A DNA stretch of 64,000 nt from Naegleria gruberi (Eukaryota): NCBI GenBank assembly GCA_000004985.1, contig GG738889.1. The stretch is one strand, 5' to 3'. The number at the start of each line of letters is the position of its first letter. The stretch's first letter is position 1. This document shows, in pieces, positions 214 through 26,228 of the stretch. The notes below the pieces were generated by a model. That model had not been told where the DNA came from and made no database searches. It worked only from the letters and a program-made list of their open reading frames with translations. Made by a program: the position numbers and the translations under genes.

Positions 214-2905
214 TTATTGTTGGACTGGAGCTTGTTGTTGTTGTTGTGGAGGAGCTTGTTGCTGTTGTTGTTGAGGAGCTTGTTGCTGTTGTGGAATTTG
301 TAAATTCATACCATAGTTCATCATTGCATCCATGTAAGGATCTCCTAATGAAGTCTGACCAGGTTGACTTCCATATTGAGATGGTTGTGTTTGACCTGGG
401 TATCTACCATTAAACACCAAAGGTGAACCAGAAGTTGGAGAACCACCATTAATGGAAACGAAAGGTTGAGGGTTATTGTTATACGTTTGTTGTTGGTAAG
501 GATCATAACCACCTTGTCCATAACTTTGTGGATATTGTTGACCGTATCCTTGTTGAGGATATTGTTGACCATATCCTTGTTGAGGATATCCTTGTTGTGG
601 ATATTGTTGACCATATCCTTGTGAGGGTAACCTGTGNNNNNNNNNNNNNNNNNNNNNNNNNNNNNNNNNNNNNNNNNNNNNNNNNNGGTATGAGTGATGA
701 AATTTGTCCTTGATGTCATTTGCAATGGATTCCTTGTTGGTGAACTATCAATTTTTGGATACGAGTACTATATCAGAAATATTGAATAATTTGAATTTCT
801 TCTTGGATTATGCATTATCAGATGAAAATGTGAGAGTTTCAGTAGGTGTGGATACCTTACTTGATAATTGTATTGAATCTGCTTACAAATATATTAAGGA
901 TCGTCAATATGTCAACAATCAGACTTCAAACTCTTATTATTTACATGCTGCACTCAAGAAAATATCCATGCTTCAAGCAAGAAGCTCTGCAATTGGAAGT
1001 TCTGGAAAGAGTAAGAAGGGTCCTTTCTTTTCTTCTGTTTTACATAGGAATACTGTATATGATTTCCCAAAATCTATTATTGACCCTGTTACAGAATCTA
1101 AAATAGTATTCTATTCTGATTTCTTTTCATTTGCTACTTTAAGTTCAACGATTGTGAAGAAACCTTTCGTTTCAGTACTGACCGTTTCGGATGATGTGTT
1201 TTCACTGAATAGTAGACTGGAAATGACTCATATATCTGAAAGTCAAACCACGTATTCGAAACTTATTTCTAGAATTGTGTCTATTGATTTCTCAGAACTG
1301 CCAGTTCAAGTAAATGGGAGTAAGATTTCCTACATCATTCCTTATAACACTACTGACAAAGAAGAACCAGCTCAATTTGCCAATTTAGAGTTACTTGAAA
1401 AGAACACAACTGTCACTTGTGGAGATTTCAGAAATGGATCACCAACCATCTTGAGAAGTGATTGCACATTACAAACAAGAAATACCACTCATGTGGTTTG
1501 TACATGTGTTAGTTTTACAAATGTCTTTGTTGTAGAAACTACAGTTGTGACCTATCATTCCTATGTCTATGTGGTTGCCATTGTAGTTTCTTCCATTGTA
1601 GCTTGTGTTTTATTCTTGCTGATTGCTATTGGTGTACTCGTCTCGATCATTAAAATTAGGAGAAACAAAGGAACAACTGCCAACAAACCAGAAACAGTAA
1701 CAAATACTTCAACCTTCTCACTCAGAGTTCAGGAAGTTGAAATTGAAACATCATCCTATGGAAGGGGTCAAACNNNNNNNNNNNNNNNNNNNNNNNNNNN
1801 NNNNNNNNNNNNNNNNNNNNNNNCTGTTGACCATATCCTTGTTGTGGATATTGTTGAGAATATTGTTGAGGATATCCTTGTTGTTGAGGGTAACCTTGTT
1901 GTTGCATTTGTTGAGGATATCCTTGTTGTTGTGGATATTGTTGCATTCCTTGTTGAGGGTAACCTTGTTGTGGATATTGTTGAGCATAACCTTGTTGTTG
2001 TGGATTTCCCTGTTGATAGCCAGGATAACTAACACCAACTCCAGCATTTATCAATGGAACAGTTGTTTGACCTCCTTGTTGAGTAGCTTGACCATATTGA
2101 CCTTTAATTTGGGTCATGTATTGAGTAAGGGTCGAAATAGATTGTTGCAAGCTGCTCCAATTAGCTTGTTGAGTAGATGTAACCATACTAGCAACGAGAG
2201 GTGTAATTTTATCCTTAATGAGGGCTGCATCATCTTGATCCAACAATGAAGGATCTGCTGCCAACAATTTGAGATTAGTATCAATGGTATTTACAGCATT
2301 ACTAACAAGGGCACAAGGGGAAATTGTTGACTGAGAAACAGGTTGTTGGCTTACTCCTTGTTGAGTATTTGGTTGCATGCCACCTTGTTGTTGAGGATAA
2401 CCTTGTTGCATTTGTTGAGGATAACCTGTTGTTGCATATTAGGCTGCATTTGTTGCATTCCTTGTTGAGGACTTTGTTGCTTTACTCCTCTGGTAATTCT
2501 AGTTTGTCCAATTGGAGTTGGAGGAGCTTGACCTTGTGGAGCAGGTTGATTTGGATTGGAACTCATTTGAATAGTTGGCTGTTGTTGGGATTGTTGAGAT
2601 TGTTGAGAGAAACAATATTGACCCAATCTATTAATCATGGAAATTTGAGTATTAATATTGTTAACATAGACACCAAGCTTGTTACTACTGGATTGCTGTG
2701 GTTGTTGGGATTGTTGGGATTGTTGAGATTGTTGAGGTTGTTGTGGTTGTTGCGGTTGCTGAGGTGGCTGAGGTTGCTGAGATTGCGACGGTTGAGTAGC
2801 TGCTTGTGCATTTGCTGAGGCAGATGCATCCTGAGCATTCACAACACTCAAGGCAACTAGACATAACACGAGGGATAAGCCCAATATATACTTTGGAGTG
2901 ATCAT
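214..2905 (-). CDS. Secreted Q/G/Y/P-rich low-complexity protein (gene body interrupted by gaps and a foreign fragment; 1-nt frame break near 2410-2430)
   Basis: ATG at 2905 opens a classic signal peptide (MITPKYILGLSLVLCLVALSVVNA|QDASA). QQP/QQS CAA-repeat tracts and GYPQQ repeats follow, then a unique central domain (…VSQSTISPCALVSNAVNTIDTNLKLLAADPSLL…). The C-terminal frame is continuous from 636 down to the stop at 214 (…GYPQQGYGQQYP…RYPGQTQPSQYG…APVQQ*). ORF 2351..2905 and ORF 1722..2411 overlap in different frames, so there is a single-base frame break. Bases 637-1823 are two N-gaps bracketing a plus-strand fragment of another gene. Confidence 0.45.
637..686. other. Assembly gap (50 N)
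   Basis: Run of n in the sequence. Confidence 0.95.
687..1773 (+). repeat. Gap-flanked ~95%-identical copy of 19058..20143 (the 3' coding part of the EGF/TM gene); a paralog/pseudogene fragment or a mis-scaffolded contig
   Basis: The two segments align base for base. Example start: ggtatgagtgatgaaatttgtccttgatgtcatttgcaatgg versus ggtatgagtgatgaatatttgtccttgatgtcatttgcaatgg. Identity continues through the TM helix (VYVVAIVVSSIVACVLFLLIAIGVL) and ends with ...SSYGRGQ at the N-run. The copy has the same orientation as the original. Confidence 0.6.
1774..1823. other. Assembly gap (50 N)
   Basis: Run of n. Confidence 0.95.
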
Positions 2906-3064: not shown

Positions 3065-5329
3065 CTACTTTGTTACTGCCGAATCGGTATTCATATTGAG
3101 AACTTTCCTGTAGTACAAAATTTGATAGAGTCCTCTTGTTCTGTACATTAAAATTATTCCACCAACAGCACCAAAACCACACAAGGTTGTGGTCAAGTAG
3201 AATGTTGTCTGATAGCACAGGGTACCGTAACATATCTTGGACATGTTATCTGTTGGAATATTACTTTCGTAGATTTTACCTGCCAATAAGGTAGCAAGTA
3301 GGAAACTTCCCAAACTCGATGCTAAACTACAAATGGACGAATTGACTGCAAAATATTTTGGACCGAATCTTTCACTCAAGAAACTAGGAACCATAACTGC
3401 AACTCCTCCAAAACTAACTCCCAACAATATTAAAATGAAATAGTAAACCCAAAGAGGTGAAACTAGAACAATCATTTGACAAATCAACATGAGCAATACT
3501 CCACCAGTAAGGAAGGTCGTTCTGGTAATGTATCTACTCAATGTATCACTCATTAATCCAAACATCAATCGTCCTAAAGCATTAGAACATGCAAAAATCA
3601 TAACCATCAAATGTTGTTGACCATCGTATCCACCAAATGAAATGACAATTGAGCCCAAATTATTGACAATAACTAATCCAGAACCCATCGTTGCAAAGTA
3701 CACATAAAACACCAAATAAAAATCGAGAGTGAAAAGCATTTGCAATGGATTGGCATCTGGAATTGGAGTTTTGGCAATTTTCCAAATCTTGTCGTATTTG
3801 CCTGCTATTTCCTGATCTGTTTCGATTGGACCTTTATCTAAATCGTCCTCAATTTCTTCAATTTCATCGACTTGCTCTTGCATTGCTTCTCCTCGTTCTT
3901 CCAAAATTAATTGTTGACTCAAATCAAATCCTTCCAAATCTTCTTCCTTATCTTCTATTTCAGAGTTGTCTTCAATCTTTCCAATTGGATTTTCCAATTT
4001 GATATTATCTGTGGTTTCCTCCTTTTTTACATTTGAATCTTGCTTAGTTGGTACTGTTTCAGTCTTATCCTGCTGGCTTCCAACCATTAGAAAATCATTG
4101 AATTGATCTTGATCCTCTTCCAAATCTTCATCATGGACGAAACTATTCACATCTTCTTCATCCTGAGCCACTTGAACATAGCCACCATTATTTGGCGATT
4201 TAGTTGAATCATTTGGCTGTATTCCAATCTGATTCATGAAGAAAGTTCCAATCACAGTTGCAACTCCACCAAAAACTCCTACAAAAAGCAAGTAATCTCC
4301 CAACTTTCTCTCAAATCCAACACTGTAAATGAAACTAAACACTGCACTACTGAGAGCGACACAACTTCCCATAAAACCAATGATTTTTCCTCTATGTCTA
4401 GGTTCAAAATTTTTAATATTGGTCGTAATGGCTGCTGCATAGGCACCTAATTTACAAAAATTGAAATTATTGTAAAATGTTTACAATAAAATTTCAAACA
4501 AAAACCTACCTGCAGATCCCTGACCCATAACTGCCATAAAACATGCAATGAAAATATAAGCATCAGTTCCAACCATGTCAATTGCCTTAATATACACCAA
4601 ATAAAACATAAAATATCCACAAAATAACAAAACTCCAGAAATGACACACGTAATTCTCGATCCCACAAAATCATTCAACATTGAAACAGGTAATGCAAAA
4701 TAAGTTCCAACATTTGCAGCTGTTCCAATTAAATTAACTTGAGTTTGTGAAAAATTCAAATCATTCTTAATGGTTGGTGAGATGGAAGAGTAGGCATAGT
4801 GAGTTCCACTTAGAAATGTTAGTAATGCACCGAATAGGAATGAAATCCATCGATTTCCAAATAAGATGAAATGTAAATTGGTTAAAAAAGTGGAAAATTT
4901 GGATTTTTGTGGAGGTGAAACATTATTAGAATCATTTGGATTGGAAGATGATGGTATAGAAGTGTTATCTTGTTGGTCATTATGTATTGATGGGTCAAAA
5001 TTGTTTCTTGAACGTATTTCTTGATTTATATGATCAGAAATATTATTCGAATCTTGTTGAAAGCTATCGGAATGGTTATCTAGTACTTCCTCTGATATAT
5101 GTGCATCTGCATCACCTTCCTCTCCTTGTTTATGTCCTCGAATAATTATTTTCACAGAAGGCAATGGTTGTTGAGCATTGTTGTCATCTCTCGACGTGTC
5201 ATTGGAAATTATCGATGAAGAAGAAGAATTAAATTCTTGTTGATTTTCAGTGGAAGAAGACGTTGTTTCCTGTTGAGCAACGGATGGTTGACCCTGTTGT
5301 GTGTTGGTGCTATCGAGATTATCATCCAT
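3065..5329 (-). CDS. Nodulin-like major-facilitator (MFS) membrane protein, 2 exons: complement(join(3065..4446,4510..5329)), 63-nt intron
   Basis: ATG at 5329. The N-terminal region is low-complexity and S/N/D-rich. A nodulin-like MFS N-domain follows (…WISFLFGALLTFLSGTHYAYSSISPTIKNDLNFSQTQVNLIGTAANVGTYF…). Donor G|GTAGGT at 4509, acceptor …aaattag| at 4447, phase 1. The junction gives …GQGSAG-AYAAAITTNIKNFEPRHRGKIIGFMGSCVALSS…. There is a long acidic central loop and 10-12 hydrophobic helices. Confidence 0.6.
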
Positions 5330-5337
5330 ATCTTTGA

Positions 5338-8300
5338 TTATGATATTTTTTTTAAAATGGTGACAGAATTTAATCGGAGTTCTTTAATGGTATCGGAAAC
5401 GGAAGTGTTTATTTGAAAATTGTAACTGATCTGATTACATTCTTNNNNNNNNNNNNNNNNNNNNNNNNNNNNNNNNNNNNNNNNNNNNNNNNNNNNNNNN
5501 NNNNNNNNNNNNNNNNNNNNNNNNNNNNNNNNNNNNNNNNNNNNNNNNNNNNNNNNNNNNNNNNNNNNNNNNNNNNNNNNNNCTGGTACCCAAGGTGCTG
5601 GTGGATTACATCCACCAATTGGTTCAATATCATCAGAGTGAGTAATTACGAGGGAATAATTTTGGTTCTTCAGCAATTTGTAAGCTGTTACTGAAACACC
5701 AACAAGTATGTCTTCATCAATTTCCTCAATTCTGACCTTTTCAACGTTATTTAAGTGATCACCGTCTGAGTTGTCATTTCCTGGATATCTAGTTGATCTT
5801 GTACTATTTTCTGAGAATACATAGGCATTCAAATCCAAATCTTGATAAAGCTCAAACTTGGTACTTGTGGCAGCCATGTCATACCAAGCAATTGTGGCAT
5901 ATAGGAATGTAGATCCAGAAGATGGTGATCTACCTGCAACTCTTCTAAAGCAATAGTTTTGTGTTTGACTTTGTGTGATGGTCTTTCTATCAACTGTGAA
6001 TAATTCAAAGGTTGAACCAACAAATTTAAGAACTGAAGACAAGGAAACGAGACCAAATCCAGTATAAGCATTTGGATAACCCATCTTTTTAAGGTCAGAC
6101 ATTGAGCCTCTTCCATCAAGTGACACCATACCCTTCAATGGTTGTGAGGAATGAACAAGGGTGGCTTTAAGCAATGGTCCAGATGGATTACTATGAACAG
6201 TACGAGTCATAAAATATTCACGAATGAGAGCTGTAACATGTTAATAAAAATTCAAATAATTCAATGATAACATACCCAAACTTGATGCAACTAGAGGTGT
6301 TGCCATGGAAGTTCCTCTGAGTGTCAATACAGATGCTTTGTTAGTTGGGGTTGGTCTTCCTGTTCCACATTGGAAAGTACTGAGACTACCATCAGAGTGC
6401 ATAGATTCAATTTCATAACCAGGAGCAACAAGATCAGGTTTGATTCTGTTACCAATTGCTGGTCCACGTCCAGAGAAGTAAGCTAAATTTTCCTTTGTAA
6501 AGTATTTCTTACTGTCAGAGTAAGTCTTCTTCATAAAAGTGCTGCAGCACAATGATTTAACAAGGTTGGTCTGGTCATCTGTTGTTCCCTTAAAGTTACA
6601 ACATTCCTCTTCTGATGAAACCTTGATGGCTTGGAAAATACTGGTAAAATCAACATGGTCAACTGCACTGATAAAACCGTCATTTGTAGTTTGAGAAGCA
6701 CCAACACTGATAACATTCTTTGAGGTGGTTGGACTACCAATATTACCAACATCAGATGTATGTCCTTCGTTACCAGCTGCAAATAAGACAACAAAATCAT
6801 CATGATCCCATGTGAATTTGTCGATATCTTGAGCTTTGGTATCATAGGTATTACAAATTTGGCAGCAAGATTTTCCAAACATTGTTTTACAGAAATCATT
6901 TGAAACAGTCTCTCCTGTTTTACCATAGTCTGTATCAATTGCCCATTTACAATTACAATTATATTTACAATTAAACACTGCAGAGAAAGAACATCCCCAA
7001 CTATTGGAATGGATTCTCACGTTTGCCTTTTGATATGGAATCTTGAACAAGTAATTGTACAAATCAGGTGGAATGAGAAGACTACTTCCTCCAGTTTTCA
7101 TAATGTCAGTAAAGAAGAGCTTGGCACCTGGTGCACCTCCATTATACTTTTTAAGATCTGAAAAAGTATCTGCACTTGTCAAAATGCTTCCAGCAATACT
7201 GCCAGCAACGTGAGTACCATGTCCATCACCACCATCTTGATCGTCTGACTTGTAAATATTTCCATACTTATCTTCGAGAGCCACAGTTTGATAAGAGACA
7301 ATCTTTCTGTGTTCCATATTGACAGTGTTGACTGGAACTTCATTATCAGGATCATGGAAGAAGCATTGGTCAGAATCAATACCAGTATCAGCTACACCAA
7401 CTACAACTCCCTTTCCTGTAATTCCATTCTCCCAAATGAATAAATTTGAGCTAGAATTGGCAGTGGTTGGAGTATCAGCATTAATTCCTTGCATAATAAT
7501 ATTTGGATAATAGTTCATGAGAGTGTATGGAAGTTGTCTTTCAACGCTTTGGATAGCATCATGTTTCATGATAATCTTCATGGCTTCAGAGGCAATCTTT
7601 GGAGAACAAGTGAACCCGATTCTATCTTGACCTTCCTTCTTGACTGAAAAGAATAGTGGTTCTTCATCCTTGGATAATTTGGCAATTTCGTTTGAGAACT
7701 TTTCTTGCAATTCCTTATTCAACTGAGAGACAATTGTTTCTGTTTCCTTTTCAATTGTTTCATCGAGAATGGCTCTCAAACTTGGAGTAATAGTGGCAAA
7801 AACTGAAATATGTGAAACAATAGATGATGCCACTGCACGAGTATGCCTATTTAGATTGGAATTTGCCGACTCGAATCTAGTTAATTTTTCAAGAGTTTCC
7901 TCCAATGTAGTTTCCTTAATTTCTGTTTGAGTCGTGGCAGCTTTGTTTTCCCACATTTCCTGCATCTTGGTAAAATCAAGATTGGATTTGAATTTAGAAT
8001 CAACTCTTCCAATCCACTCGATAGTGGATCCATACTCTGTTTCAATAGAGGCAAGTTTGGCCAACTCGGACATTTCGGATGGTGTTGCTCTAATAGCAAG
8101 GAGAACACCATTGGAAAGTGTTCCAATAATTGAATGCTCCAAAGCTTTTCCGAGTCTGTTGGCGGTAATTGCTACATTATTTACAGTATTAGTATTTACA
8201 GTCAATGCATTCAAGAGAGCACCATTAAACTTTGATAAATCCAAATTTGAGCTAGTTAATCTTACAAAGTATTGAATTGGTTCTTCTTTAGAATCTCTTG

Positions 8301-13819: not shown

Positions 13820-13928
13820 ATTAATTTGCACTCTTTTCAATTTTCAACGATAAATTGTTTACTCTTTAGTTTATGCTTAATGATTCATCAAATGGAATTG
13901 AATAATGAAATAAGACTAATTGAAATAT

Positions 13929-14693
13929 TTATTTATTAAGCGAATTGAAACATTCATCAATTTCTTTCATATAATTACTCAATTTTCTATCTGCATTCTC
14001 CATAATATAATCTTTGGAAAGTTGTAATTTCGGATTGCTTCCGTGTTTGAGTTGATACAAGAGCAACAATTCCTCTGTTGTTCCAATGGATTGATAGAGT
14101 TTATCTCGTTCTACATTTTGTTTGGCTTGTTGAAGGAGTGATTTCCTTATGAATGGTAGCAGATTTTCACGTACAAATTTGTTGTGAAATGCTTGATGAA
14201 GAGATTCAACGTGACCTTCCAATCCTACTTGTTTCACCTTATTATTAGCAAGTATTCCTTCAATACTGACATCAGAGAGGGAATTCATTTTAGCTGACTG
14301 CAGAAAATTCCTACAAACAATCTGATACTGATTGAGGAAGGTTTTCAATTTTCTAATCTTTTTCAATTTCTTCTGTATTTGAACTTTTTGATTGGCACTT
14401 GTGGTATTCATTGAAGTGAGTGCATTCTCCATGATATCCAATTCTTTCAAATTACTTTCCACTTGATAATCACGAAATAGATAATCCTCCAAGGTTTGAT
14501 AGAGTGTTGGATAATTTTCCATCGATGATGACATTGATTGTTCTATTATATTTTCTTGTTCCGTTGCAACATTCGAATCTAATTGTTTAATTTCCTCCTT
14601 CTCCGATAATGTTGATGCTACTGCAGGTGTTTGTAAATCTAAAGAGGAAGCAATAGAAGGAAAATCTTCACTACTCATATCATTAATTTCCAT
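13929..14693 (-). CDS. Hypothetical coiled-coil protein (254 aa)
   Basis: ATG at 14693, single uninterrupted ORF with coding-like composition. I recognise no family. It starts only 63 nt downstream of the preceding same-strand gene. Confidence 0.45.
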   Translation of the reverse strand: MEINDMSSEDFPSIASSLDLQTPAVASTLSEKEEIKQLDSNVATEQENIIEQSMSSSMENYPTLYQTLEDYLFRDYQVESNLKELDIMENALTSMNTTSANQKVQIQKKLKKIRKLKTFLNQYQIVCRNFLQSAKMNSLSDVSIEGILANNKVKQVGLEGHVESLHQAFHNKFVRENLLPFIRKSLLQQAKQNVERDKLYQSIGTTEELLLLYQLKHGSNPKLQLSKDYIMENADRKLSNYMKEIDECFNSLNK

Positions 14694-14756
14694 CTTGTTT
14701 CATTTTTTTAAATTTTATTAATTTTTAATTACAATTACAATGAATTTTATTTACAA

Positions 14757-15395
14757 TTACTTTTCATCCGTATAGAAAGTTTCATAGAAAAAGTCAACTA
14801 CAGGTGCAAAGAAACCCCACGTTGTTGCATTATCCAATTTTCTAGTCTTGTTCTTAAAATCGATACTTTCATTGGAAAGAGTTTCAGTTTTATCCACTAG
14901 TAAATCCAACTCATCTGCTCTTACAATACATTTATCAATATTCGATATCATTACATTCTGAATTGCTTCAATTCTCTTTTTACATTTCTTAATTTGATCA
15001 CTCTGTGGATTATTATTATAATAATTCAATACTTCCTTAATTGAATTCTTAAATTCTTTATGAGGAATTGAATATGACTCTTTAGATTTATAGCAAGTAA
15101 ACCATCTATCCCGTATCCTCTCACAACACTTCTTTGAACAATATTTACTAAAGTTAATATCACACAGTAGGAGAATGGTAATTTCATCCTTGACTAGGAA
15201 GGGAATTAGCAATGATTCAAACATACTAATATTAAATGTATCGAGTGGAGGTATTCTATTGATCATACTCTCAATCACAAACCTCAAATCCTTTCCTAAT
15301 TTATTGGATGAATAGGTTGCTTCACTAAGAATTTGATTTCCCTTAGCAATTACACAGTGGAGAATTTTTGAATCTTCAAATCCTGGTGTTGTCAT
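14757..15395 (-). CDS. VAMP7: Longin-domain R-SNARE, VAMP7-like, apparently lacking a C-terminal transmembrane anchor
   Basis: ATG at 15395. Longin region HCVIAKGNQILSEAT… aligns with VAMP7 FAVVARGTTILAKHA. SNARE motif KRIEAIQNVMISNIDKCIVRADELDLLVDKTETLSNESIDFKNKTRKL aligns with VAMP7 …VRNIDLVAQRGERLELLIDKTENLVDSSVTFKTTSRNL, including the zero-layer Arg. The ORF then ends in …NATTWGFFAPVVDFFYETFYTDEK* with no TM helix in any frame. Confidence 0.65.
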   Translation of the reverse strand: MTTPGFEDSKILHCVIAKGNQILSEATYSSNKLGKDLRFVIESMINRIPPLDTFNISMFESLLIPFLVKDEITILLLCDINFSKYCSKKCCERIRDRWFTCYKSKESYSIPHKEFKNSIKEVLNYYNNNPQSDQIKKCKKRIEAIQNVMISNIDKCIVRADELDLLVDKTETLSNESIDFKNKTRKLDNATTWGFFAPVVDFFYETFYTDEK

Positions 15396-15935
15396 TGTTT
15401 GATGATATTATTTTGATTTGATGGTAATTTATATAATTTAATATTTAATATATATACTATTAATACTATTATTGATGTGATGATGGATATAATGATGATG
15501 ATGAATTATTCTTAATAATAATTATTATATTACTATTATATAATACAACTATCGCAATAGGAGATTTTCCTTAATATAAATTTGAATTAATAAATTAATC
15601 TTGATGTAACAATAATAATACTATGACAATAAACAATAAAATATTAATGTGAGAATTATAAATATTCCTCTCTTAATATTTCAAGTTGATATTAAGGATG
15701 ATATCAACTGTCAGAATGCGATAACGAATGGATTGTTCCTAATTTTTTTTTAACTAACTGTATTCATTGAATCAACACTGTGGTGGATATAAAAGAGAAA
15801 TACACACCAATTAAGGACCAGTTATCTTTTACAGTTCTATAAATATTTTCCCATCAAATCAATTAAATTATTAAAAATTAAATAATTTAATAAAATTAAT
15901 TCAATAACGAATATTAAATTTAATAATGAAAATAA

Positions 15936-16355
15936 TTATTCCGATAAATGTTTGATAGCAGCTGCATTTTCCTCCCAATTTTCACCATCAAACTTTTCCA
16001 CCTGATAATCCACCTTGCATTCATCCACAATACATCTCATATTGACACTCCAACCATCGGGATTACTTCTCGGCTTGTAGAAGGTACAAATTCCACACTT
16101 TGGACAAAAGTAGTGCTTTGCCACATGTGTCTGGAAGGTGTAGCAACCTAAATCACTCAATGATGAAGGACTTTTCAATACAAAATTACTCTCACTTACA
16201 ATGTGATGGAGGAAACCTTTCTTTTTGCATATGGAACAATTACAATCGAGAACTTGGAGGTTTTGAAGAGATTCGGGAGATTGTGCTGTTTCGCATTGCA
16301 TGAAACCACAATGGCATGAGAAGGTGAGTATTTGCATTTTTTTATTGTAAAACAT
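15936..16355 (-). CDS. GFA-family (glutathione-dependent formaldehyde-activating / CENP-V-like) zinc-binding protein
   Basis: ATGs at 16355 and 16337. Cys/His pattern SCHCGFMQC…CNCSIC…C…CPKCG…C is typical of the GFA/DUF636 fold. Single exon. Confidence 0.65.
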   Translation of the reverse strand: MFYNKKMQILTFSCHCGFMQCETAQSPESLQNLQVLDCNCSICKKKGFLHHIVSESNFVLKSPSSLSDLGCYTFQTHVAKHYFCPKCGICTFYKPRSNPDGWSVNMRCIVDECKVDYQVEKFDGENWEENAAAIKHLSE

Positions 16356-16706
16356 TTAACAATTTCAATATTGAAAAACCTTTAAATAGATTGAAAAAAT
16401 CTTGGAAAGATTCTCCTCGAGGAAGTATTATTATTCATTCTATTGTGAAGAACCATTCAACAGAAACTCTTTACCCAAAAATGTTCAACAGTAGTGTGTG
16501 AAATTTTTCAATTGTGTAACAACATCAAACTTTTCACACAAACAAGAGCTGCGAAGAAAGGAATAACATCTTAGCTTCTATTGGATGAATTCTTCCGAGG
16601 GTGTAAGGGTGAAAATTCAATTATCTCTCTTGATGATTTTCACTTTCAAAAAAGAATAAGCATGCTTAATATTTGCTTCATCTACGTTTAGCAATCTAAA
16701 AGCAAA

Positions 16707-19700
16707 ATGCCAATTTTCATAAGGAGAACTACTGGGAGAGAACATTGTTTATGTAATACTAATAGTGAGGGATTGAGTAGGAGCTTGAAATCATCGCATT
16801 CACCTCAATATAATATTAATATTTCACAAAACTCATCATCAATTACTTCATCAAAACCTGCTTCATCGATGGTGAGGAATAAGACTACTATTTATACATC
16901 GATATTTCATATATTAGTTGTATGTCTATTCTTCCTACCAACTTGGTTTGCAGTTGTACTTTATGTGAATGCCCAAAATCAACCTTTCACATGTGGTGGC
17001 TATCTACCTGACGATGATAGAGTTTGTAATTTTAGAAAGGGAATGTGTATTGGAGAGGATATATGTGTTTGTTCAAATGGATTTCAAGGAGATTCCTGTT
17101 CTATAACCACATGTTTTGGTATAAGGTCAGATTCAACAAGTGTTTGTTCTGGAAGTGGATATTGTGAATCGTTGAATAATTGTACTTGTACATTGGGTTG
17201 GAAAGGTATTGCGTGTAATGAAAGAGTTTCAGATAGGAATAATCAATACAGAGCTTTGGAATCAAATAATTCCACAATTTCAGAGAATGTTGACTTTATC
17301 GAGGCAGTAATTACAATGCCAAATGTCAACCAATTCAGTTCATGTGGAGCCATTTCAGTAGATGGTTCTTCAAGTCACTCAGCAGATGGGAGACCATTAA
17401 TATATTATTGGTTGTTATTTGATTCGAAAATGAATTTACTTGCAGATAACTTCCCTCACCAACCAATCATTACTCTAGAATCGAGTATTCCATCAGGATC
17501 TTATAGAGTGGGATTGATAGTTCAGAATACTGTCTTGAAAATCAATAGTTCTATAACTGTTTCTCCAATTTTCACAAAGGCAACTTCACCACTTCCAATG
17601 TTGACCATGTATAGGGGAGAAACAGTGATTGAAAAGTATTCGAATGAGTTTCCAATAACATTGAAGAAGATTGTGAGTGATTCTTCATGTAAATCCTCAC
17701 AAGATGTTCTCCATATTGAATGGACCCAATTGAGTGGACCTTTCATCAATCACACTATTGATACTTTCAATAATTTGCATATTCCAAAGTTGAAAGTCTT
17801 TGGAAATTACACATACCTATTTAGAGTTTCAACATTTTACAAAATAAGTGCTAAAGTTTCTTTGAATGTGACTTTGAGTACAAATTCACCAAAATTGGAA
17901 TTGAATATTTTACAAACTGAATCTACAAGTGAGTTGACCACTTTACAAATTGATTATGTAGATCCAGAAGCTTTATATAATGAAGAATCGACAGAAGTTT
18001 GGAAATGGACTTCATCCAATCAAAGTCCTCAACTCTTAACAATACAAAATTTGTCCAAATCAAAATCTTTACAATTTTCAATTTCTTCTAAATTATTGGA
18101 AACAAGGGCTGATTCCATTATTTTAACTTTGGAAATTAGAAAGAGTGATGGAAGAAGTGTTCAAAAATCAACAACCATCAACTTTAACAATATTCCTCCT
18201 CTTGTAAATATTGTAAATATTGAACCACCTTCAAATGTCATTTTACCAGGTCAGCTCATTCCGATTCAAACTTTGACAATTTCAAACTCTTCGAACACAA
18301 CATGGATTCTGAATGGTAAGATTGTTGATTCTTCTTCCATTATCCAACAAGCTTCTCCAGGAATGGAAACAAATACCATCCTAATTGACTCTTCAAATTT
18401 GGAAGAAGGATCAGTCAACTCTTTAACAATAATTACCTATGATACCAAGACTGGTCTGTCAACACAGAATAGCCATTCATTCCGAGTAGCACAAATTGTA
18501 AGACAATTGATAACAATATTGATTACAGATATGGTTTTATAGACGATAGATCTCAATCAAAGATTGTAATGTACAATTTGGGAGAAGTTTACTCAACCAA
18601 AATGCCATCTCCTTTTACTGGAACATCTGTCACTTGTTTCTTTGATATTGTGGACAAAACCACAGGCGCATTCTCAACAACCTATTCCAATGTCACCATT
18701 TACAAACCAATCATTCAAAACTTTGCTGATATCCAATCAATTGTCCAAAAATGGGAAGATCAATCCATTCCCTATTCCTTAGATGGTGATTTCAGTAAGA
18801 GCATCTACCAATCAGCTTCCACTTCAAGAACTGATGCAGTTTTATTGAAAGAGGCCATGTTATCCAATAGTAGAAGTCATAGCCGTAAAGTTTCTGTTAT
18901 ATGCCTTAATGGTGTTGAAGTTTCAGGCGAGTGCAAATGTAAGGATGGTTGGATGGGGCAACGTTGTGAAATTTCCATTGGGGACTTTTCAAATATTCAA
19001 GGAACAAAGCTTTCAATATTGAGAGATATGATGTTTGTGGTGAATAGAACATATGGTATGAGTGATGAATATTTGTCCTTGATGTCATTTGCAATGGATT
19101 CCTTGTTAGTGAACTATCAATTTTTGGATACGAGTACTATATCAGAAATATTGAATAATTTGAATTTAATCTTGGATTATGCATTATCAGATGAAAATGT
19201 GAGAGTTTCAGTAGGTGTGGATACCTTACTTGATAATTGTATTGAATCTGCTTACAAATATATTAAGGATCGTCAATATGTCAACAATCATACTTCAAAC
19301 TCTTATAACTTACATGCTGCACTCAAGAAAGTATCCATGCTTCAAGCAAGAAGCTCTGTAATTGGAAGTACAGGAAAGAGTAAGAAGGGACCTTTCTTTT
19401 CTTCTGTTTTACATAGGAATACTGTTTATGATTTCCTAAGATCTATTATTGATCCTATTTCAGAGTGTAAAATAGTATTCGATTCTTATTTCTTTTCATT
19501 TTCTACTTTAAGTTCAACGATTGTGAAGAAACCTTTCGTTTCGGTGCTGACAGTTTCAGATGATGTGTTTTCACTGAATAGCAGATTGGGAATGACTCAT
19601 AAATCTGAAAGTCAAATCACGTATTCGAAACTTATTTCTCGAATAGTGTCAATTGATTTCTCAGAGTTACCAGTTCAAGTACATGGGAGTAAGATTTCCT

Positions 19701-20320
19701 ACATCATTCCTTATAACATTACTGACAAAGAAGAACCAGCCCAATTTACCAATTTGGAGTTAGCTGAAAAGAACACAACTGTCAGTTGTGGAGATTTCAG
19801 AAGTGGATCACCAACCATCTTGAGAAGTGATTGCACATTACAAACAAGAAATACCACTCATGTGGTTTGTACATGTGTTAGTTTTACAAATGTCTTTGTT
19901 GTAGAAACGACAGTTGTGACCTATCATTCCTATGTCTATGTGCTTGCCATTGTAGTTTCTTCCATTGTAGCTTGTGTTTTATTCTTGCTGATTGCTATTG
20001 GTGTACTAGTCACTATCATCATTAAAATTAGGAGAAACAAAGGAACAACTGCCAACAAACCAGAAACAGTAACAAATACTTCAACCTTCTCACTCAGAGT
20101 TCAGGAAGTTGAAATTGAAACATCATCCTATGGAAGGGGTCAAACACCTCTTGGTGTTTACGATACCATTACTCCACAAGAAAAATCTAATAGCTTTGCA
20201 GTTCAATCTGTTTATCATATGAATCGTAAGAGATCACAAGTGATTCCTCTTCGTATCGACTTGTTAGATGAGAAGTATTGTGATAACTTGTCGAGTAACG
20301 GATCTGATTGCGAATTATAA
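16707..20320 (+). CDS. Large type-I membrane glycoprotein with EGF-like Cys repeats, long ectodomain, GPS-like Cys motif, one TM helix and a short tail; 2 exons: join(16707..18497,18563..20320)
   Basis: Signal/anchor MVRNKTTIYTSIFHILVVCLFFLPTWFAVVLYVNA; the first in-frame ATG is 16707 but the likely start is 16869. EGF-like modules (CGGYLPDDDRVCNFRKGMCIGEDICVCSNGFQGDSC…CTCTLGWKGIAC and CKCKDGWMGQRC). Donor GTAAGA at 18498, acceptor …caatcaaag at 18562, a 65-nt intron; this is the only splice that joins the two open frames. TM VYVLAIVVSSIVACVLFLLIAIGVLVTIII followed by KIRRNKG. A 3' part is duplicated at 687..1773. Confidence 0.6.
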
Positions 20321-20341
20321 ATAATTACATTTGTTTAACAT

Positions 20342-22602
20342 TTATTGACCTTCTTTGATAATCTTGAAAAGCGAACTAATATTATTATTCTTAATTGCCT
20401 TTCTACATTCTGAAACAACACGATTCTTTGGTTCTCCTATTCTTAATCTAGCAGCTTTTTGAATCATTTGGTTGACTTCTTTCAATGCAGTTAACAATTG
20501 ATCGTGGTTGGTACTTCTCTTCTTGTATTCACCGATCAATCCCTTGTTGACACTGTGGAGTTCATTATACATGGATCTTACAGATTTCATATCTGCAATC
20601 ACTCTGGAATCTTCTGCTTTAATGACGTAGGCCTTAATAAGCTGAGAGCTATCAGCCATTTCAGCAGTCATCTTTAATCTGTTAGAATTATATTCTTCGA
20701 CACTTTGTGTAATCTGTTCGAACTTTTCAAATTCAACTGGGAAGTCACACTTGGAATCTAATTCCTTGATAGACAAGAATGCACAAACATCTTGGAATAA
20801 ATCACCAGCAACTTCCATATCGTCAACGCTGATAGTCATCATTCCGTCCTTGTAGAGTAATCTGAGAGGAGATCCATCCCTCAGACTTGTAAACTTGGCA
20901 TCTATCACATCAGCCTCTCCTTCAAGCTTAAATACAATGTTAAAAGATTCATTCAACCACATAATAATTCTCTTAACTCTTTCACCTAGAACGAAATTGA
21001 GAACAGATTTTGGAGGTCTAGGATGTTCTCCTGGTATGTACATTGCAAATCTAGGAAGTGTATAACTCAAGTTGAAGATGTGGTATTTAGAACCCAAGTT
21101 GAAACCAACCATAACTTGAATTCTCATTTCCACTGCAATGTTCTTTTCCGGTCTCAAACTGACCTTAATTTCATTCGATGGATTCTTAGAGTAGACCATA
21201 CTGGTATCTGTTGGGAAGAGTTGTTCTGCGGTAATGATTGCTGATCTGATAATATTTTCCGCATCGGTTCTAAAAACAATATCAAGACAATTCTCTTGAA
21301 TATTAGGATTCAAGTTACATTTGACCTTAGAGTCTGATCTAATAAGAGAAGAGTCAATATCACCATTCTTGAGCTTTTTAAGATTTTCCTCGTAGTTTTT
21401 AAGCTCATTGGTCAATTCTTCTCTCTTTTGAATGAGTTTTTCAATTAGTTCATCGAGAGAGGAATCTTCCACTTGTTTTGTAAGATTTTCCTGAGCTGGT
21501 ACATAACCCTTAAGGTCACCACTAACAGAACAACAAATCAATTCATCATGACCATCCATTCTATAATCAGCTACTATTAAACCAGCGACAGATTCCTTGA
21601 GAGAATCTTTGTGAATTAATCTACCATCTTCTTGTTTTCTTACTTCAAGTTTTCCACTATTATAACCAACAATAATATCTGGAACTCCATCTTTAAGAAT
21701 GTCGTATCCAACCATACCATTAACGGCACTCTTAGACTTATTTTTCCAAATTCTATTTGATCCTTTGTATAATCCATAAGTATTACTAGATAAAGCATAT
21801 CCAAAACTTCCACCATTCAAATCGCAAAGCTCTGTAACAGCTGAGGTTTCTTTACATTCAGCAATAATTGATTCGTCTTGATAAATATATATTACATAAT
21901 CGTCAGATCCTACAAGTAATTCATTCTCATTATCACCATTAACATCAGCCAAGCATAAAGAGGTGACATCACCACCTGCAGTAGTCCAAAATTGTTCCTC
22001 ACCATCTCCATCATAACCTTGAATTGAGCAATTTCCACCAACAAAAACAAGTGGATTTGCATGTGATCCAAGCTTTCCGAAAATCATTCTATTTACACCA
22101 TCTTGAACATCTCTGTAGTAAATATCCGAGTTTGTATCAACATTATAGGCCATCAAATTGGTTTGAGTACCAATCATCAAGGTTTCTCTTCTGACTCCTT
22201 GTTTAAAGGCGCCAGAGGCAACACAATTAACGTCCTTATTGACATTCAAGAAGGTTACTATTTTGAAAGAATATTACTAATATTTCTTCAATATTGGATA
22301 CCTACATTGATTTCCTTGATTTGTTTCATGAGGATTGTGTACCATCACCTTACCCGAACTAGTACCAGCAGCAAGACAAGGTCTATTTCCATCGACTAGT
22401 TTTCATATACAAAATTCATACAATCCAACATTGAAATACAATTTAATCAATCCAATTCAGGTCCATCATTGACCAATAAATCAATGAATAGTAGCATTAT
22501 CGTTCCGTAACTTCTTTGATGAAAGCACTTACATTTTCCTACTGCTACAGTTCCCTTCGTGATGGGGTGTCCCAAATTTACTTGAAAGGTTGGATTCAAC
22601 AT
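20342..22602 (-). CDS. BBS2: Bardet-Biedl syndrome 2 protein (BBSome subunit), 3 exons: complement(join(20342..22257,22306..22395,22533..22602))
   Basis: Exon 1 [23 protein letters not shown] matches human [23 protein letters not shown], donor T|GTAAGT. Exon 2 [30 protein letters not shown] matches [28 protein letters not shown]. Donor GTAGGT at 22305, acceptor aaatag at 22258, a 48-nt intron. Exon 3 has collinear matches along the whole protein (…[28 protein letters not shown]…[19 protein letters not shown]…LLVGSDDY…[14 protein letters not shown]…[23 protein letters not shown]…ELKNYEEN…LPRFAMY…[20 protein letters not shown]…[31 protein letters not shown]). The ORF track's start at 22249 is a TTG inside exon 3. 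Confidence 0.85.
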
Positions 22603-22844
22603 TTTTTTCTTTCTGTAGAATTTGTTTGGCGCCAAAAGAAAACCTTTTAAAACTTTTCAAATTTCATTCATGATCTTTGAAGCATTTGCTTTCTCATTGA
22701 CATAAAATTGAAGATAAGATATTGAGAAATATTCATGCTGTGATAAGAGATGTTCCACTTGGTTGATTCTTAATATTGTTGTATGTCTGATAAGGCAGAT
22801 ACCAGTTTTGGCGCCAAAATTTTGTACAAATTTTCTAATAAAAA
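22603..22844. promoter_or_regulatory. Probable bidirectional promoter between divergent BBS2 and the coiled-coil gene
   Basis: 242-bp AT-rich segment between two divergently oriented start codons. Inferred from gene arrangement only. Confidence 0.3.
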
Positions 22845-24478
22845 ATGAGTCGACCAACTAGTGCACCAATCACCAAGGGTGATAAACAGGCTCGTGTGCT
22901 GTGGTTGAGCCAATATAAAGCGTTAAAAGCAAAGTAGGTTGAATAATTATGCGGAATATTCATGATCGTGTATTGTTGTCGAAATAAGGGAGGAAAATTT
23001 TAAGAGGGAAATTGCAAATCACTTTATCAATAATCCGAGAATGGGTGATATGAAAGATTTACTGAATGAAATGCAATCAACGGAAGGAATAAATAGACAA
23101 AAACAATTGGAGGAAAAGAAGGAATGCTTGGAGGATATTCAAGATGTCAGTAAGAGAGTTTTTGCCTTGAAAAGAATGACTCAGGAAAATAAATTAATAA
23201 ATGAGAATCTGTCAGAAGATCAGCGACAAGAGGCTCTCAGAAAGATCACATCCACAATGGAAAGGATTGAAAATCAGTGTATAGTATTTAAACAAACTAG
23301 GAGACAAATGTAAGTGGATGATATGAACTGATTTTGGATAGAATTAACAATTATAGTTTACAAACGCTTAATACCGAGGAAAAGATTTTAATGAAAGATA
23401 TAGCTTCGATAGAGGCTCTAATTGATGATCCGAATTGGTTGAAAGAGAAAGAGGAGGCAGAGAGTATTTTTGATAATCCAGAAAAGATGAAAGCTGTCAA
23501 GCAATATTTGGAGAAGAGAGAAAATTACAAAGTTCCACAAGAAGTTATTGACTTTGACGTAAGTTTATTTGCTCATAATTTTCATGTTCATTTCATTAGA
23601 ATTATGTATCTCAACATGGAGGGTTGACTGGAAATTGGGATGTTGAAGATCATTCACTCTTTTTAAAATTGAGGAGCAAGTTTACTGACCCACAATTATT
23701 TATATCGAAATGTGTTGAGGAAATTAAAACGAGAAGTATTATTGAAATACAGGAGCATGAGGAATTCTATCGACAATACGTCATTTTACTCAACCAGAAA
23801 AAGAATGCCATCCAAAAGTGGAAGGATGAAAAAACCAAAAAGAGAGACGAACAAATTGAAATCGAGGAAGAAAACAAGGTTAAACAATTAGAAAGGGAGG
23901 AAGAACAAAGAAAGAAAGATGCCAAACGACAACAAGTCTTGACCAAAATGAAATTAGAAGCTTGGAAGGTAGAAAGAGAGAATATGGAACGAGATCGAAA
24001 ACAGCAAGAAGAACGAGAGAAACTAGAACGAAAGCAAAAAGTCAGTGAAGAGGAAAAGAAGAAAAAGGAAGAAAAGAAAGACCAAATTGAAAAGTACAAA
24101 CAAATCAAGGAAGAAAAACAAAAGCTGAAACAGAAACACCTAGTGGAAGAATTGAGTAGAAAGGTAAGACCTCCATCTGCTGCAGAAGTTGCCAGAGTGA
24201 AGGAAAGAGAGGAACAATATCTCAAGAGAGCACAAGATTGGAAGCTTAAAAAGGAAAAGGAGGCTAAAGAGAAAGAGGAACGTCTTAATAAGCTCAAAGA
24301 AAAAGTTAAGGTAGATGTTGAACAAAATTCAGATCGATTATTCAAACCCACACAAGCACACATTAATAGAGAAGTTGAAATTAGGGAACAAATGGCACAA
24401 CCAAAATCTGATTCAAGGCCTCTAGCAATGGATGTGAGAATGATTTCACATAGAATAGTTCCGACCTGGCGGAAGTAA
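22845..24478 (+). CDS. E/K-rich coiled-coil protein, ~4 exons: join(22845..22934,23005..23309,23357..23558,23600..24478); exon 1 is tentative
   Basis: Four open frames are linked by in-phase GT..AG introns. These are GTAGGT…taag (70 nt, tentative), AT|GTAAGT…ttatag (47 nt) and GAC|GTAAGT…cattag (41 nt). The last exon encodes a long charged coiled coil (…EKTKKRDEQIEIEEENKVKQLEREEEQRKKDAKRQQ…). The gene could alternatively start at ATG 23041. Confidence 0.5.
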
Positions 24479-24515
24479 TAAATCTAGTTTTAATTAAGGT
24501 ACAAAATTAATTTTT

Positions 24516-25232
24516 TTAAAATTTGGATGATGTATTGGCTGATCCATTAGTATTATCTTCTTGCTCTTCCTTCTTTTCTTGTCTTAAGGCTCTAACATTA
24601 TAATTTTTGTAGCCATTAACTTTGAATCCGTAAACTTTAGGGATGTACACCTCCGTTGGAGGTTTTGGAATTAAAGTATCATATTGAATTAAAAATAGGT
24701 GAGGGAATGTTGTTCCCCAGTAGGCTCCATCAATGCCTCTGTGTCTACTTGATCTAGGGTAATAGATATCATTACATCTAGGACAATAGATTTTAACAGA
24801 AGATTCTCTTATTTTGTCAGATTGTCCAACTGGAAGAGCAGGTTGTCCTTGGCAATTTACACGTGGACATCTTCCAAAATGTACCTGTCGGTATTTTTCT
24901 TCCATTAGTGCCAATCCTCGGTTAGTGAGAATAAATCTGGCATGTATAAGTCCATAGAGAGTATCTGCTGCTGATTCAACTAATTGTTGTTGTTCATCTG
25001 TTAGTTCTTCATCCATTGGAGACTCTAAATCTAGAATCATGTCGAGGGCATAGTCGAAAAAAGGGACTTCATTCTGAAGACCACACAAATTAAAGTCGTC
25101 TTGGATATAATCTTCGTCTACTTCGCAAAAAAACTCATGTCCTTTGAGTGTACAAAACCAACTAATCCAAGAAATTTCTTCTTCCTCTTCTTCGAATTCT
25201 TCGTCTGAGACAGCTGCCCTTCTTTCACTCAT
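24516..25232 (-). CDS. CSNK2B: Casein kinase II regulatory (beta) subunit
   Basis: ATG at 25232. The full CK2-beta signature is present: acidic stretch [18 protein letters not shown], zinc-finger Cys pairs (…[17 protein letters not shown]…[10 protein letters not shown]), [18 protein letters not shown]. Single exon. Confidence 0.9.
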
Positions 25233-25553
25233 TATTTATATTTATGATGATGATGATGATGATGATGAATTAGAGAAAAATGAAAGTGGAGGTTAAACGA
25301 AAAACACCCGTGAACGCGAGAAGGTGGTTTTATCGTTGTATGTTTAAAATATTTTTTTTGAGTGTTTTCTGCTTTACAACTCCAGCCAAGGCGGTAAAAA
25401 ATTAATTGCAACAAGATCATTGATACAATTTTATTATCTAAACCATTCTGTTCTGCCGATGTTGTTTTTTGCTACAAATTAACAATATAATTTTTATGAC
25501 CATAAGAAGAAAATATAATGATCTTCTTGATGACCCAGAGTTGAGATTTATTG
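25233..25553. promoter_or_regulatory. Probable bidirectional promoter between divergent CK2-beta and the Maf-like gene
   Basis: 321-bp segment between divergent start codons. Inferred from gene arrangement. Confidence 0.3.
25248..25271. repeat. (GAT)8 microsatellite in the CK2-beta 5' leader / divergent promoter
   Basis: atgatgatgatgatgatgatgatg immediately upstream of the CK2-beta ATG. Confidence 0.8.
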
Positions 25554-26228
25554 ATGAAACTTCATATGAAACTCTTTGAAAAAATGCTCCGAAAACTTGT
25601 TGATAAATATCATGTAGTTTTGGCTTCTCAATCACCTCGTAGAAAGAAAATTCTGATAGAGAATGGAGGATTAGAATTTGAAAAGGATTTTGTTATCATT
25701 CCATCGACTTTTGATGAAAAATCGTTAGATAAAAGCAAGTTTGAAACACCAAACGATTTTGTGATGGAAAATTCGAGATTGAAGGCTGAACAAGTGTTCA
25801 ACTCTATGAAGGATTCGTTCGATAATTTAATAGTGATTGGAAGTGATAGTATTGTAGTGTATGGAAAGGAAATATTGGAAAAACCAGCAAGTACTGATGA
25901 AGCTCGGAATATGTTGAACATGTTGAGTGGAAATAAGCATAAGGTCATTTCTGGTGTTTCAATCTACATTAAAAACACGAGTAACTGTGCTTCTGAACCG
26001 AAACTTATTTCATTTGCTTCGGAAACTCTTGTTTTGTTTGATACACTCTCAGCAGAGCTCATTGAGGAATATATTGAAACAAAGGAACCAATGGATAAAG
26101 CTGGAGCATATGGTATTCAAGATATGGGATCTGCTTTTGTTTTATCCATTGAAGGAGATTATCATACAGTGATGGGATTACCTTATCAGAAAACATTTGC
26201 TGCCCTCAGACTAGCTCTTCATAAATAA
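25554..26228 (+). CDS. Maf-like nucleoside-triphosphate pyrophosphatase (Maf/ASMTL family)
   Basis: Real ATG is at 25554; the track start 25551 is TTG. Maf motifs VVLASQSPRRKKIL, …VIGSDSIVVY…, …KAGAYGIQD…. Single exon. Confidence 0.7.
   Translation: MKLHMKLFEKMLRKLVDKYHVVLASQSPRRKKILIENGGLEFEKDFVIIPSTFDEKSLDKSKFETPNDFVMENSRLKAEQVFNSMKDSFDNLIVIGSDSIVVYGKEILEKPASTDEARNMLNMLSGNKHKVISGVSIYIKNTSNCASEPKLISFASETLVLFDTLSAELIEEYIETKEPMDKAGAYGIQDMGSAFVLSIEGDYHTVMGLPYQKTFAALRLALHK

What the first reader, a model, noticed from the sequence alone, without database searches (positions are those of the whole stretch)
687..1773. Gap-bounded 1.09-kb near-identical copy of the EGF/TM gene's 3' region embedded in an unrelated Q-rich gene
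Bases 687-1773 start exactly at the end of one 50-N run and stop exactly at the start of the next. They are a same-orientation, ~95%-identical copy of 19058-20143. That region encodes the membrane-proximal ectodomain, GPS-like Cys motif, TM helix and beginning of the tail of the EGF/TM gene. The copy lies in the middle of a minus-strand secreted Q/G/Y/P-repeat gene, whose frame is intact on both sides (2905..1824 and 636..214). The copy is either a recent segmental duplication that disrupted the Q-rich gene, or a paralog/alternative-haplotype contig mis-placed into a scaffold gap. The second option is favoured by the gap boundaries and the repeat-rich host. The ~5% divergence is too high for a simple collapsed duplicate.
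Basis: seen in the sequence. Interest (0 to 1): 0.6.

Follow-up and report, generated by a model that had tools for sequence, protein, structure and literature searches.

The report
Misplaced variant contig in assembly gap
The 1.09-kb "copy" is real sequence, but it is most likely a second version (probably the other allele) of part of a Naegleria gruberi surface-receptor gene that the scaffolder dropped into a repeat-caused gap 18 kb away, so it is an ordinary draft-assembly artefact and not a gene-disrupting duplication.

Summary
Bases 687-1773 lie exactly between two 50-N runs and match 19055-20145 on the same strand over their whole length (94.96% identity, 51 mismatches, 2 indels). The window is Naegleria gruberi NEG-M. 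The primary copy is the 3' part of NAEGRDRAFT_71256, and it encodes a GAIN domain with a GPS-like motif, one TM helix and the start of the tail. The fragment shows no breakpoints. Identity is 98-100% at both contig ends and 90-92% in the core. It keeps the reading frame except for a 1-nt deletion 15 nt from its end, and dN/dS is 0.31 (neutrality p=1.4e-4). Amino-acid changes are spread over both lineages. It therefore comes from a selected coding sequence and not from a decaying inserted fragment. Tandem repeats of the Q-rich host gene abut both gaps, which explains the original gap. This fits the known "duplicated contained contig" or heterotype false duplication of Sanger assemblies. The other allele is the most likely source, a collapsed recent paralogue is less likely, and a true insertion is unlikely. 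No read data were available, so this is not proven. Interest is low.

The parts
637..686 (.). 50-N scaffold gap (left boundary of the isolated contig)
687..1773 (+). Isolated 1,087-bp contig. It is a variant copy of the GAIN-domain/GPS/TM/tail-start coding part of NAEGRDRAFT_71256. The open frame runs from 704 to the contig end, with no start and no stop codon. There is a 1-nt deletion at about 701 and a 3-nt in-frame deletion at 1644.
1774..1823 (.). 50-N scaffold gap (right boundary of the isolated contig)
214..636 (-). 3' part of the secreted Q/G/Y/P-repeat gene (stop codon at 216-214). QQGYP-type tandem repeats at 526-622 run up to the gap. Two missing T's at about 621-634.
1824..2905 (-). 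5' part of the same Q-rich gene (ATG at 2905, signal-peptide-like N-terminus). Tandem repeats at 1825-1997 start at the gap edge. 1-nt frameshift near 2427.
19055..20145 (+). Primary counterpart of the contig inside NAEGRDRAFT_71256
16707..20320 (+). NAEGRDRAFT_71256 (XP_002673629.1, 1174 aa): EGF-like repeats, a middle region, an EGF-like module, a GAIN domain, one TM helix and a tail
18454..18542 (+). 89-nt GT-AG 'intron' of the public gene model. It bridges a frame-disrupting deletion of about 26 codons plus 1 nt, relative to six paralogues.

Best explanation
The 1,087-bp piece is a separately assembled variant of bases 19055-20145. Most likely it is the second allele of the GAIN/TM-coding part of NAEGRDRAFT_71256 in the heterozygous N. 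gruberi NEG-M genome. The inferred sequence of events is as follows. Reads covering the 8-10% divergent core could not be merged with the primary haplotype, so they formed a contig about one to two Sanger reads long. Its mates pointed to this same scaffold, but its true position was already occupied. The scaffolder therefore put it into the nearest gap that could hold it, the gap caused by the QQGYP tandem repeats of the Q-rich gene. It padded each side with a minimal 50-N gap. The Q-rich gene is therefore not interrupted in the organism. What is shown: end-to-end containment, gap boundaries, the divergence profile, the selection signature and the repeats at the gap edges. What is inferred: the allelic origin and the scaffolder's behaviour.
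For: (1) The contig is bounded by N runs on both sides and aligns over 100% of its length to a site 18.4 kb away on the same scaffold and strand. No junction with Q-rich sequence exists. (2) Per-100-column identity is 98, 98, 96, 92, 90, 91, 93, 95, 98, 94 and 100%. The ends therefore lie inside near-identical sequence, as expected when read ends set the contig ends and a biological breakpoint does not. (3) dN/dS is 0.31 (23 synonymous and 26 non-synonymous changes). Neutrality of both lineages is rejected at p=1.4e-4, and one neutral lineage at p=0.01-0.05. Only 5-8% of simulated sets of 51 random substitutions leave the frame stop-free. The larger indel is in-frame. (4) Polarised with paralogue P0110, 9 amino-acid changes are derived in the copy, 5 in the primary and 12 are ambiguous, so there is no one-sided decay. 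(5) No annotated protein is 90% or more identical to 71256, and the nearest paralogue is 65% identical. (6) Tandem repeats of period 15-45 abut both outer gap edges, and single-base indels occur near these contig ends, as expected for low-coverage contig ends. (7) N. gruberi is reported as heterozygous (PMC9928731, citing Fritz-Laylin 2010). Kelley & Salzberg describe this class: small contigs, mostly under 2 kb, contained in a nearby contig and placed close by through mate links (PMC2864568). Ko et al. list gaps between duplicate pairs, and elevated haplotype divergence, as hallmarks of false duplications; these were most frequent in the Sanger assemblies they examined (PMC9516828).
Against: No reads, depth or mate-pair data were available, so the misplacement is not directly shown. 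Overall divergence of 5% (8-10% in the core) is well above the median 98.1% identity of published false duplicates (PMC2864568). It is probably also above average allelic divergence in NEG-M (my recollection, not checked), although assemblers split out only the most divergent allelic segments. The 18-kb offset is not obviously matched to a standard insert size. The gene belongs to a lineage-specific family that has duplicated repeatedly, and it is absent from the syntenic site of a related Naegleria. That raises the prior for a recent paralogue over an allele.
Confidence: 0.58

Rival explanations
1. The contig belongs to a very recent, otherwise collapsed or unassembled paralogue of NAEGRDRAFT_71256, either nearby or elsewhere. 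Its less divergent parts were merged into the primary locus. Only the divergent core was assembled separately and then misplaced into the Q-rich gap. This is still an assembly artefact, but there is a real second gene copy.
For: The family has at least 7 members in N. gruberi, three of them on this scaffold. 71256 is absent from the syntenic position in a related Naegleria, so the family is dynamic. Divergence of 5-10% is more typical of young paralogues than of alleles. The purifying-selection signature fits a functional paralogue as well as it fits an allele.
Against: No annotated protein is 90% or more identical to 71256. A whole extra gene copy would have to be hidden in an ~8x (recalled, not checked) Sanger assembly apart from 1.09 kb. 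Placement on the same scaffold and strand needs the flanks to be collapsed into this locus. It requires one more locus than the allele explanation.
Confidence: 0.25
2. The placement is correct. A segment of at least 1.09 kb of the GAIN/TM gene was duplicated and inserted, antisense, into the Q-rich gene on one or both haplotypes, and it disrupts that gene.
For: Only the scaffold order itself. The scaffolder had some linking evidence for putting the contig there.
Against: No junction sequence exists. Both contig ends are still inside homologous sequence that is 98-100% identical to the primary copy, so any insert would extend into gaps given as 50 N. A non-translated antisense fragment should evolve neutrally, but dN/dS is 0.31, the frame is stop-free and the larger indel is in-frame. 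The gap is independently explained by the tandem repeats.
Confidence: 0.06
3. The contig stems from a chimeric clone, or from contaminating DNA of a closely related strain, and has no counterpart in the NEG-M genome.
For: None specific. The contig is small, is probably built from few reads and has an error-like 1-nt deletion near its end.
Against: NEG-M is a clonal axenic strain (established knowledge). A contaminant would not normally be linked by mate pairs into this scaffold. Heterozygosity explains the data more simply.
Confidence: 0.05

Closest known systems
Duplicated contained contig (DCC) / false segmental duplication from haplotype divergence (Kelley & Salzberg 2010, PMC2864568)
   Same: A small contig under 2 kb aligns over its full length inside a nearby contig of the same scaffold in the same orientation. 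It sits in a gap in a Sanger paired-end assembly of a heterozygous genome, and it creates apparent extra exons.
   Different: Identity is 94.96%, below the paper's median of 98.1% and just under its 95% screening cut-off. The mate-pair likelihood test that defines a 'mis-assembled DCC' could not be run.
Heterotype false duplication (Ko et al. 2022, PMC9516828)
   Same: The duplicate pair is on one scaffold and separated by gaps. It lies in a region where the two versions are more divergent than the surroundings. It affects a member of a multigene family. The assembly is Sanger-based.
   Different: Half-depth coverage, haplotype-specific k-mers and discordant read pairs, which are the diagnostic criteria, are untested here.
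GAIN domain with GPS motif of adhesion GPCRs and PKD1-like proteins (Arac et al. 2012, PMC3321182)
   Same: This concerns what the duplicated DNA encodes. It is a helical subdomain followed by a beta-sandwich that ends in a four-Cys C-x-C-x-x-L/F-T-N-x-F motif directly before a TM helix. The predicted fold matches the BAI2, BAI3, CELSR1, latrophilin, GPR110 and CD97 GAIN domains.
   Different: It is followed by one TM helix, not 7 or 11. The residue at -2 of the putative cleavage site is Ser, Arg, Lys or Gln and not His. Pfam GPS is not significant on single sequences. Autoproteolysis is untested.

Membership tests
Misplaced haplotype/variant contig (duplicated contained contig, false duplication) | The contig aligns over more than 93% of its length to nearby sequence on the same scaffold | tested here: met
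   100% of the 1,087 bp aligns to 19055-20145, 18.4 kb away, same strand
Misplaced haplotype/variant contig (duplicated contained contig, false duplication) | Identity above 95% (screening threshold in PMC2864568) | tested here: inconclusive
   94.96% overall. Identity is 98-100% in the terminal 200 columns on each side and 90-92% in the core. This is borderline against an arbitrary cut-off.
Misplaced haplotype/variant contig (duplicated contained contig, false duplication) | Gaps separate the duplicate from its surroundings, and no junction sequence exists | tested here: met
   50-N runs lie directly on both sides. The flank-to-flank comparison shows nothing else.
Misplaced haplotype/variant contig (duplicated contained contig, false duplication) | [quoted passage not shown] | not testable with these tools
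   No read placements or mate-pair data are available
Misplaced haplotype/variant contig (duplicated contained contig, false duplication) | Haploid (half) read depth on both versions, and haplotype-specific k-mers | not testable with these tools
   No reads are available. N. gruberi is not in the searchable contig collections.
Genuine segmental duplication / insertion | Sequenced junctions between the insert and the target gene | tested here: not met
   Both ends of the fragment abut N runs and are still homologous to the source
Genuine segmental duplication / insertion | Neutral decay of a non-functional, out-of-context fragment | tested here: not met
   dN/dS is 0.31, neutrality p=1.4e-4. 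The frame is stop-free, which has probability 0.05-0.08 under random substitution.
GAIN domain (encoded content) | Fold: an alpha-helical subdomain A followed by a beta-sandwich subdomain B | tested here: met
   AF2 model with pLDDT 80.8 and pTM 0.73, with five long helices and then about 14 strands. The top seven Foldseek PDB hits are all GAIN domains, E 2.3e-11 to 5.9e-6, TM about 0.5.
GAIN domain (encoded content) | GPS motif with four conserved Cys directly before the membrane | tested here: met
   C270, C285, C297 and C299 are invariant or nearly invariant in alignment A1. The family profile aligns to the ADGRL3 GPS ...C.C.HLTNFAVL, E 5.8e-7. The TM helix follows at model residues 319-354.
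GAIN domain (encoded content) | Canonical H-L|T/S cleavage triad and autoproteolysis | tested here: inconclusive
   L/F-T is conserved, but the -2 position is S in 71256 and K, R or Q in the paralogues. Cleavage cannot be tested computationally.
GAIN domain (encoded content) | Match to Pfam GPS (PF01825) above threshold | tested here: not met
   Best E-value is 0.15, in 4 of 11 members. There is no hit for 71256 at E<=10.

The most novel reading that the evidence does not exclude
The contig is a true second allele, and its 8-10% divergence over GAIN subdomain B is a maintained polymorphism of a lineage-specific, single-pass GAIN-domain surface receptor of Naegleria. That would make it a candidate recognition locus (self/non-self or mating), sitting in a gene family not previously described as GAIN-containing in Heterolobosea.
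Probability: 0.08. Interest if true: 0.45.

Novelty: not a real feature. Interest (0 to 1): 0.1.

Why it matters
The main use is as a caution. In the public N. gruberi NEG-M scaffold, this piece makes a secreted Q-rich gene look interrupted and suggests an extra partial copy of NAEGRDRAFT_71256. Both impressions would mislead gene counts, gene-family analyses and variant calling. If the piece is allelic, the 51 substitutions and 2 indels are a ready-made set of heterozygous markers for this locus. A side benefit is that the duplicated DNA turns out to encode a GAIN domain with a GPS-like motif and one TM helix. That identifies an N. gruberi family of at least 7 members currently annotated only as 'predicted protein'.

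Tried and rejected
(1) The word-index protein search with the C-terminal ORF returned nothing. This was a false negative, because the exhaustive HMMER search found the 100% identical annotated protein and its paralogues. I withdrew my interim conclusion that the gene was not annotated.

(2) Looking up the N. gruberi BBS2 protein to fetch the scaffold failed because it is not on record. The rest of the assembly could therefore not be searched for further copies.

(3) The Fritz-Laylin 2010 genome paper and the 2011 review are not held. The level of NEG-M heterozygosity could only be cited second-hand (PMC9928731), and other Naegleria papers added nothing.

(4) I considered a short 31-nt intron at 18498-18528 to join the two ORFs of 71256. 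I rejected it because its length is in the wrong phase. The public model instead uses an 89-nt GT-AG intron.

(5) I looked for an orthologue in a related Naegleria contig (L001) to polarise substitutions at the nucleotide level. None is present. I used paralogue P0110 at the protein level instead.

(6) I checked the other gaps in the window for overlap or duplicate artefacts and found none.

(7) The Rfam scan of 1-22500 gave no hits. There is no alternative ORF of note on the minus strand of the contig.

(8) Pfam gave no GPS, GAIN or REJ hit. The domain assignment rests on the fold search and the profile-versus-PDB match.

(9) Gene conversion from P0110 as the source of the divergent core was rejected. 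The copy is no closer to P0110 (63.9%) than the primary is (65.2%).

Full report
**1. Observation**

The window has N runs at 637-686, 1774-1823 and 38026-38075 (50 each), at 5445-5582 (138), and a single N at 38140. Bases 687-1773 are therefore an isolated 1,087-bp contig. BLASTN aligns the entire contig to 19055-20145 on the same strand, with 94.96% identity over 1,091 columns, 51 mismatches and 2 indels. Apart from the low-complexity Q-rich repeats, this is the only repeat pair in the 64-kb window.

**2. Source and genes**

The ORF at 20345-22249 (minus strand) is 100% identical to N. gruberi BBS2 (NAEGRDRAFT_71257), which lies on a 348,446-bp contig. The window is therefore from the N. gruberi NEG-M draft assembly.

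The primary copy lies in NAEGRDRAFT_71256 (XP_002673629.1, 1174 aa, annotated as 'predicted protein'). An exhaustive HMMER search found this protein. The word-index search had missed it.

The gene belongs to an N. gruberi family with at least seven members. The nearest member, NAEGRDRAFT_75960, is 65% identical. Two members, 71231 and 71188, are on the same scaffold.

**3. What the duplicated DNA encodes**

- A family alignment (A1) gave an AlphaFold model with pLDDT 80.8 and pTM 0.73. It has five long helices, then a beta-sandwich, then a TM helix.
- The seven best Foldseek PDB matches are all GAIN domains of adhesion GPCRs: BAI2, BAI3, CELSR1, latrophilin-1, GPR110 and CD97, with E from 2.3e-11 to 5.9e-6.
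- The family profile aligns its C-x-C-x-x-L-T-N-V-F motif to the HLT GPS site of ADGRL3, with E 5.8e-7.
- Pfam GPS is not significant, and the -2 residue is not His.

The contig covers the GAIN domain from its second helix onwards, the TM helix and about 40 tail codons. It has neither a start nor a stop codon.

**4. Nature of the differences**

- Differences are bell-shaped along the contig. Identity per 100 columns is 98, 98, 96, 92, 90, 91, 93, 95, 98, 94 and 100%, and the last 128 columns are identical. Both contig ends therefore lie within sequence nearly identical to the primary copy, and no duplication breakpoint is visible.
- There are 23 synonymous and 26 non-synonymous changes. dS is 0.10, dN is 0.032 and dN/dS is 0.31.
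- Neutral evolution of both lineages is rejected (binomial p=1.4e-4). One neutral lineage is disfavoured (p=0.01-0.05). Only 5-8% of simulations with 51 random substitutions leave the frame free of stops.
- One indel is an in-frame 3-nt deletion. The other is a 1-nt deletion 15 nt from the contig's 5' end, where read-end errors are expected.
- Polarising the amino-acid differences with paralogue P0110 gives 9 derived in the copy, 5 derived in the primary and 12 ambiguous. The copy and the primary are equally distant from P0110, at 63.9% and 65.2%.

The contig is thus a sample of a coding sequence that has stayed under selection. It is not a dead fragment evolving inside another gene on the opposite strand.

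**5. The host**

On the minus strand, 2905..1824 and 636..214 are parts of one gene. It has a signal-peptide-like N-terminus, Q-rich stretches, a non-repetitive middle and QQGYP-type repeats. Tandem repeats of period 15 to 45 run right up to both outer gap edges, at 526-622 and 1825-1997. That is sufficient reason for an assembly break.

The assembled sequence near these contig ends carries single-base losses. A missing T at about 2427 shifts the frame, and two more T's are missing at about 621-634. This is typical of thin coverage.

**6. Interpretation**

A small contig that is contained end to end in a nearby contig of the same scaffold, in the same orientation, bounded by gaps and more divergent in its middle than at its ends is a known kind of artefact.

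- It is the 'duplicated contained contig' of Kelley & Salzberg. These are mostly under 2 kb and are placed nearby because their mates fall in the shared surrounding region (PMC2864568).
- It is also the heterotype false duplication of Ko et al. Their hallmarks are gaps between duplicates, locally elevated haplotype divergence, and the highest frequency in Sanger assemblies (PMC9516828).
- Naegleria gruberi is reported to be heterozygous (PMC9928731, citing the genome paper).

I therefore take the contig to be the second allele of 19055-20145 that was put into the repeat-caused gap of the Q-rich gene (confidence about 0.58).

- The main rival is a recent paralogue whose less divergent parts were collapsed into this locus (about 0.25). 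It is favoured by the dynamic nature of the family and by the absence of 71256 from the syntenic site of a related Naegleria contig. It is disfavoured by the lack of any annotated protein 90% or more identical and by needing an extra hidden locus.
- Together these two give about 0.83 that the placement is an artefact.
- A genuine insertion into the Q-rich gene (about 0.06) has no junction evidence and conflicts with the selection signature.
- I read the two 50-N runs as minimum-size gaps, given that another gap in the window is 138 N. This is an inference.

**7. What could not be done**

The rest of the assembly and all reads were out of reach. Depth, mate-pair and long-read tests remain the decisive steps, and nanopore data for NEG-M exist (PMC12344493).

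**8. Verdict**

The sequence similarity is real, but the 'embedded duplication' is most likely not a feature of the genome. Interest is low.

Two side observations are worth keeping. First, this N. gruberi 'predicted protein' family encodes GAIN domains followed by a single TM helix. Second, 71256 itself lacks about 26 conserved codons plus 1 nt, and the public model hides this with an 89-nt intron.

Noticed in passing
window 18980-20095 (and paralogues P0110-P0119): The C-terminal module of NAEGRDRAFT_71256 and at least 6 N. gruberi paralogues is a GAIN domain with a GPS-like four-Cys motif, followed by a single TM helix. The residue at -2 of the putative cleavage site is not His. All are annotated only as 'predicted protein'. 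No paper in the library links GAIN domains to Naegleria.
   Followed up: partly
window 18454-18542 (around 18495): Compared with six paralogues, 71256 lacks about 26 conserved codons (...P-K/R-x-C-x-C...F-x-F-x-C) plus 1 nt between 'FRVAQ' and 'NCKT', which breaks the frame. The public gene model removes the area as an 89-nt GT-AG intron, although both of its ends encode paralogue-conserved residues. This could be a pseudogene, a haplotype-specific deletion or a local mis-assembly.
   Followed up: partly
window ~2427 and ~621-634: Single missing T's in T runs of the Q-rich gene's repeat units cause a frameshift at about 2427 and garbled codons next to the gap. They look like low-coverage consensus errors near contig ends.
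   Followed up: partly
L001 1-18172 versus window 13900-26200: A Logan contig from a related Naegleria (BBS2 80% identical) is syntenic for Maf, CK2-beta, two unnamed genes and BBS2. Downstream of BBS2 it carries a NUDIX gene and an 832-aa gene where N. gruberi has the synaptobrevin-like, GFA-like and 71256 genes. 71256 has no homologue on that contig.
   Followed up: partly
window 18569-20317 as query: The word-index protein search reported no hit at all for a query whose 100% identical annotated protein is in the collection. The exhaustive HMMER search found it. Negative results from the indexed search on S/T/N-rich queries should not be trusted.
   Followed up: yes
window 5445-5582: A 138-N gap falls inside a nodulin-like/MFS transporter gene (ORFs 4481-5329 and 5338-6210, minus strand), so that gene model is also incomplete.
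   Followed up: no
window 38026-38140: A 50-N gap is followed by 64 bases and then a single N, just upstream of the CAND1/TIP120 ORF (38260-41793). The 64-base piece has no duplicate nearby.
   Followed up: partly
window 15400-15930: A very AT-rich intergenic stretch (about 25% G+C over 15001-16000) with many short AT-rich direct repeats lies between the synaptobrevin-like and GFA-like genes.
   Followed up: no
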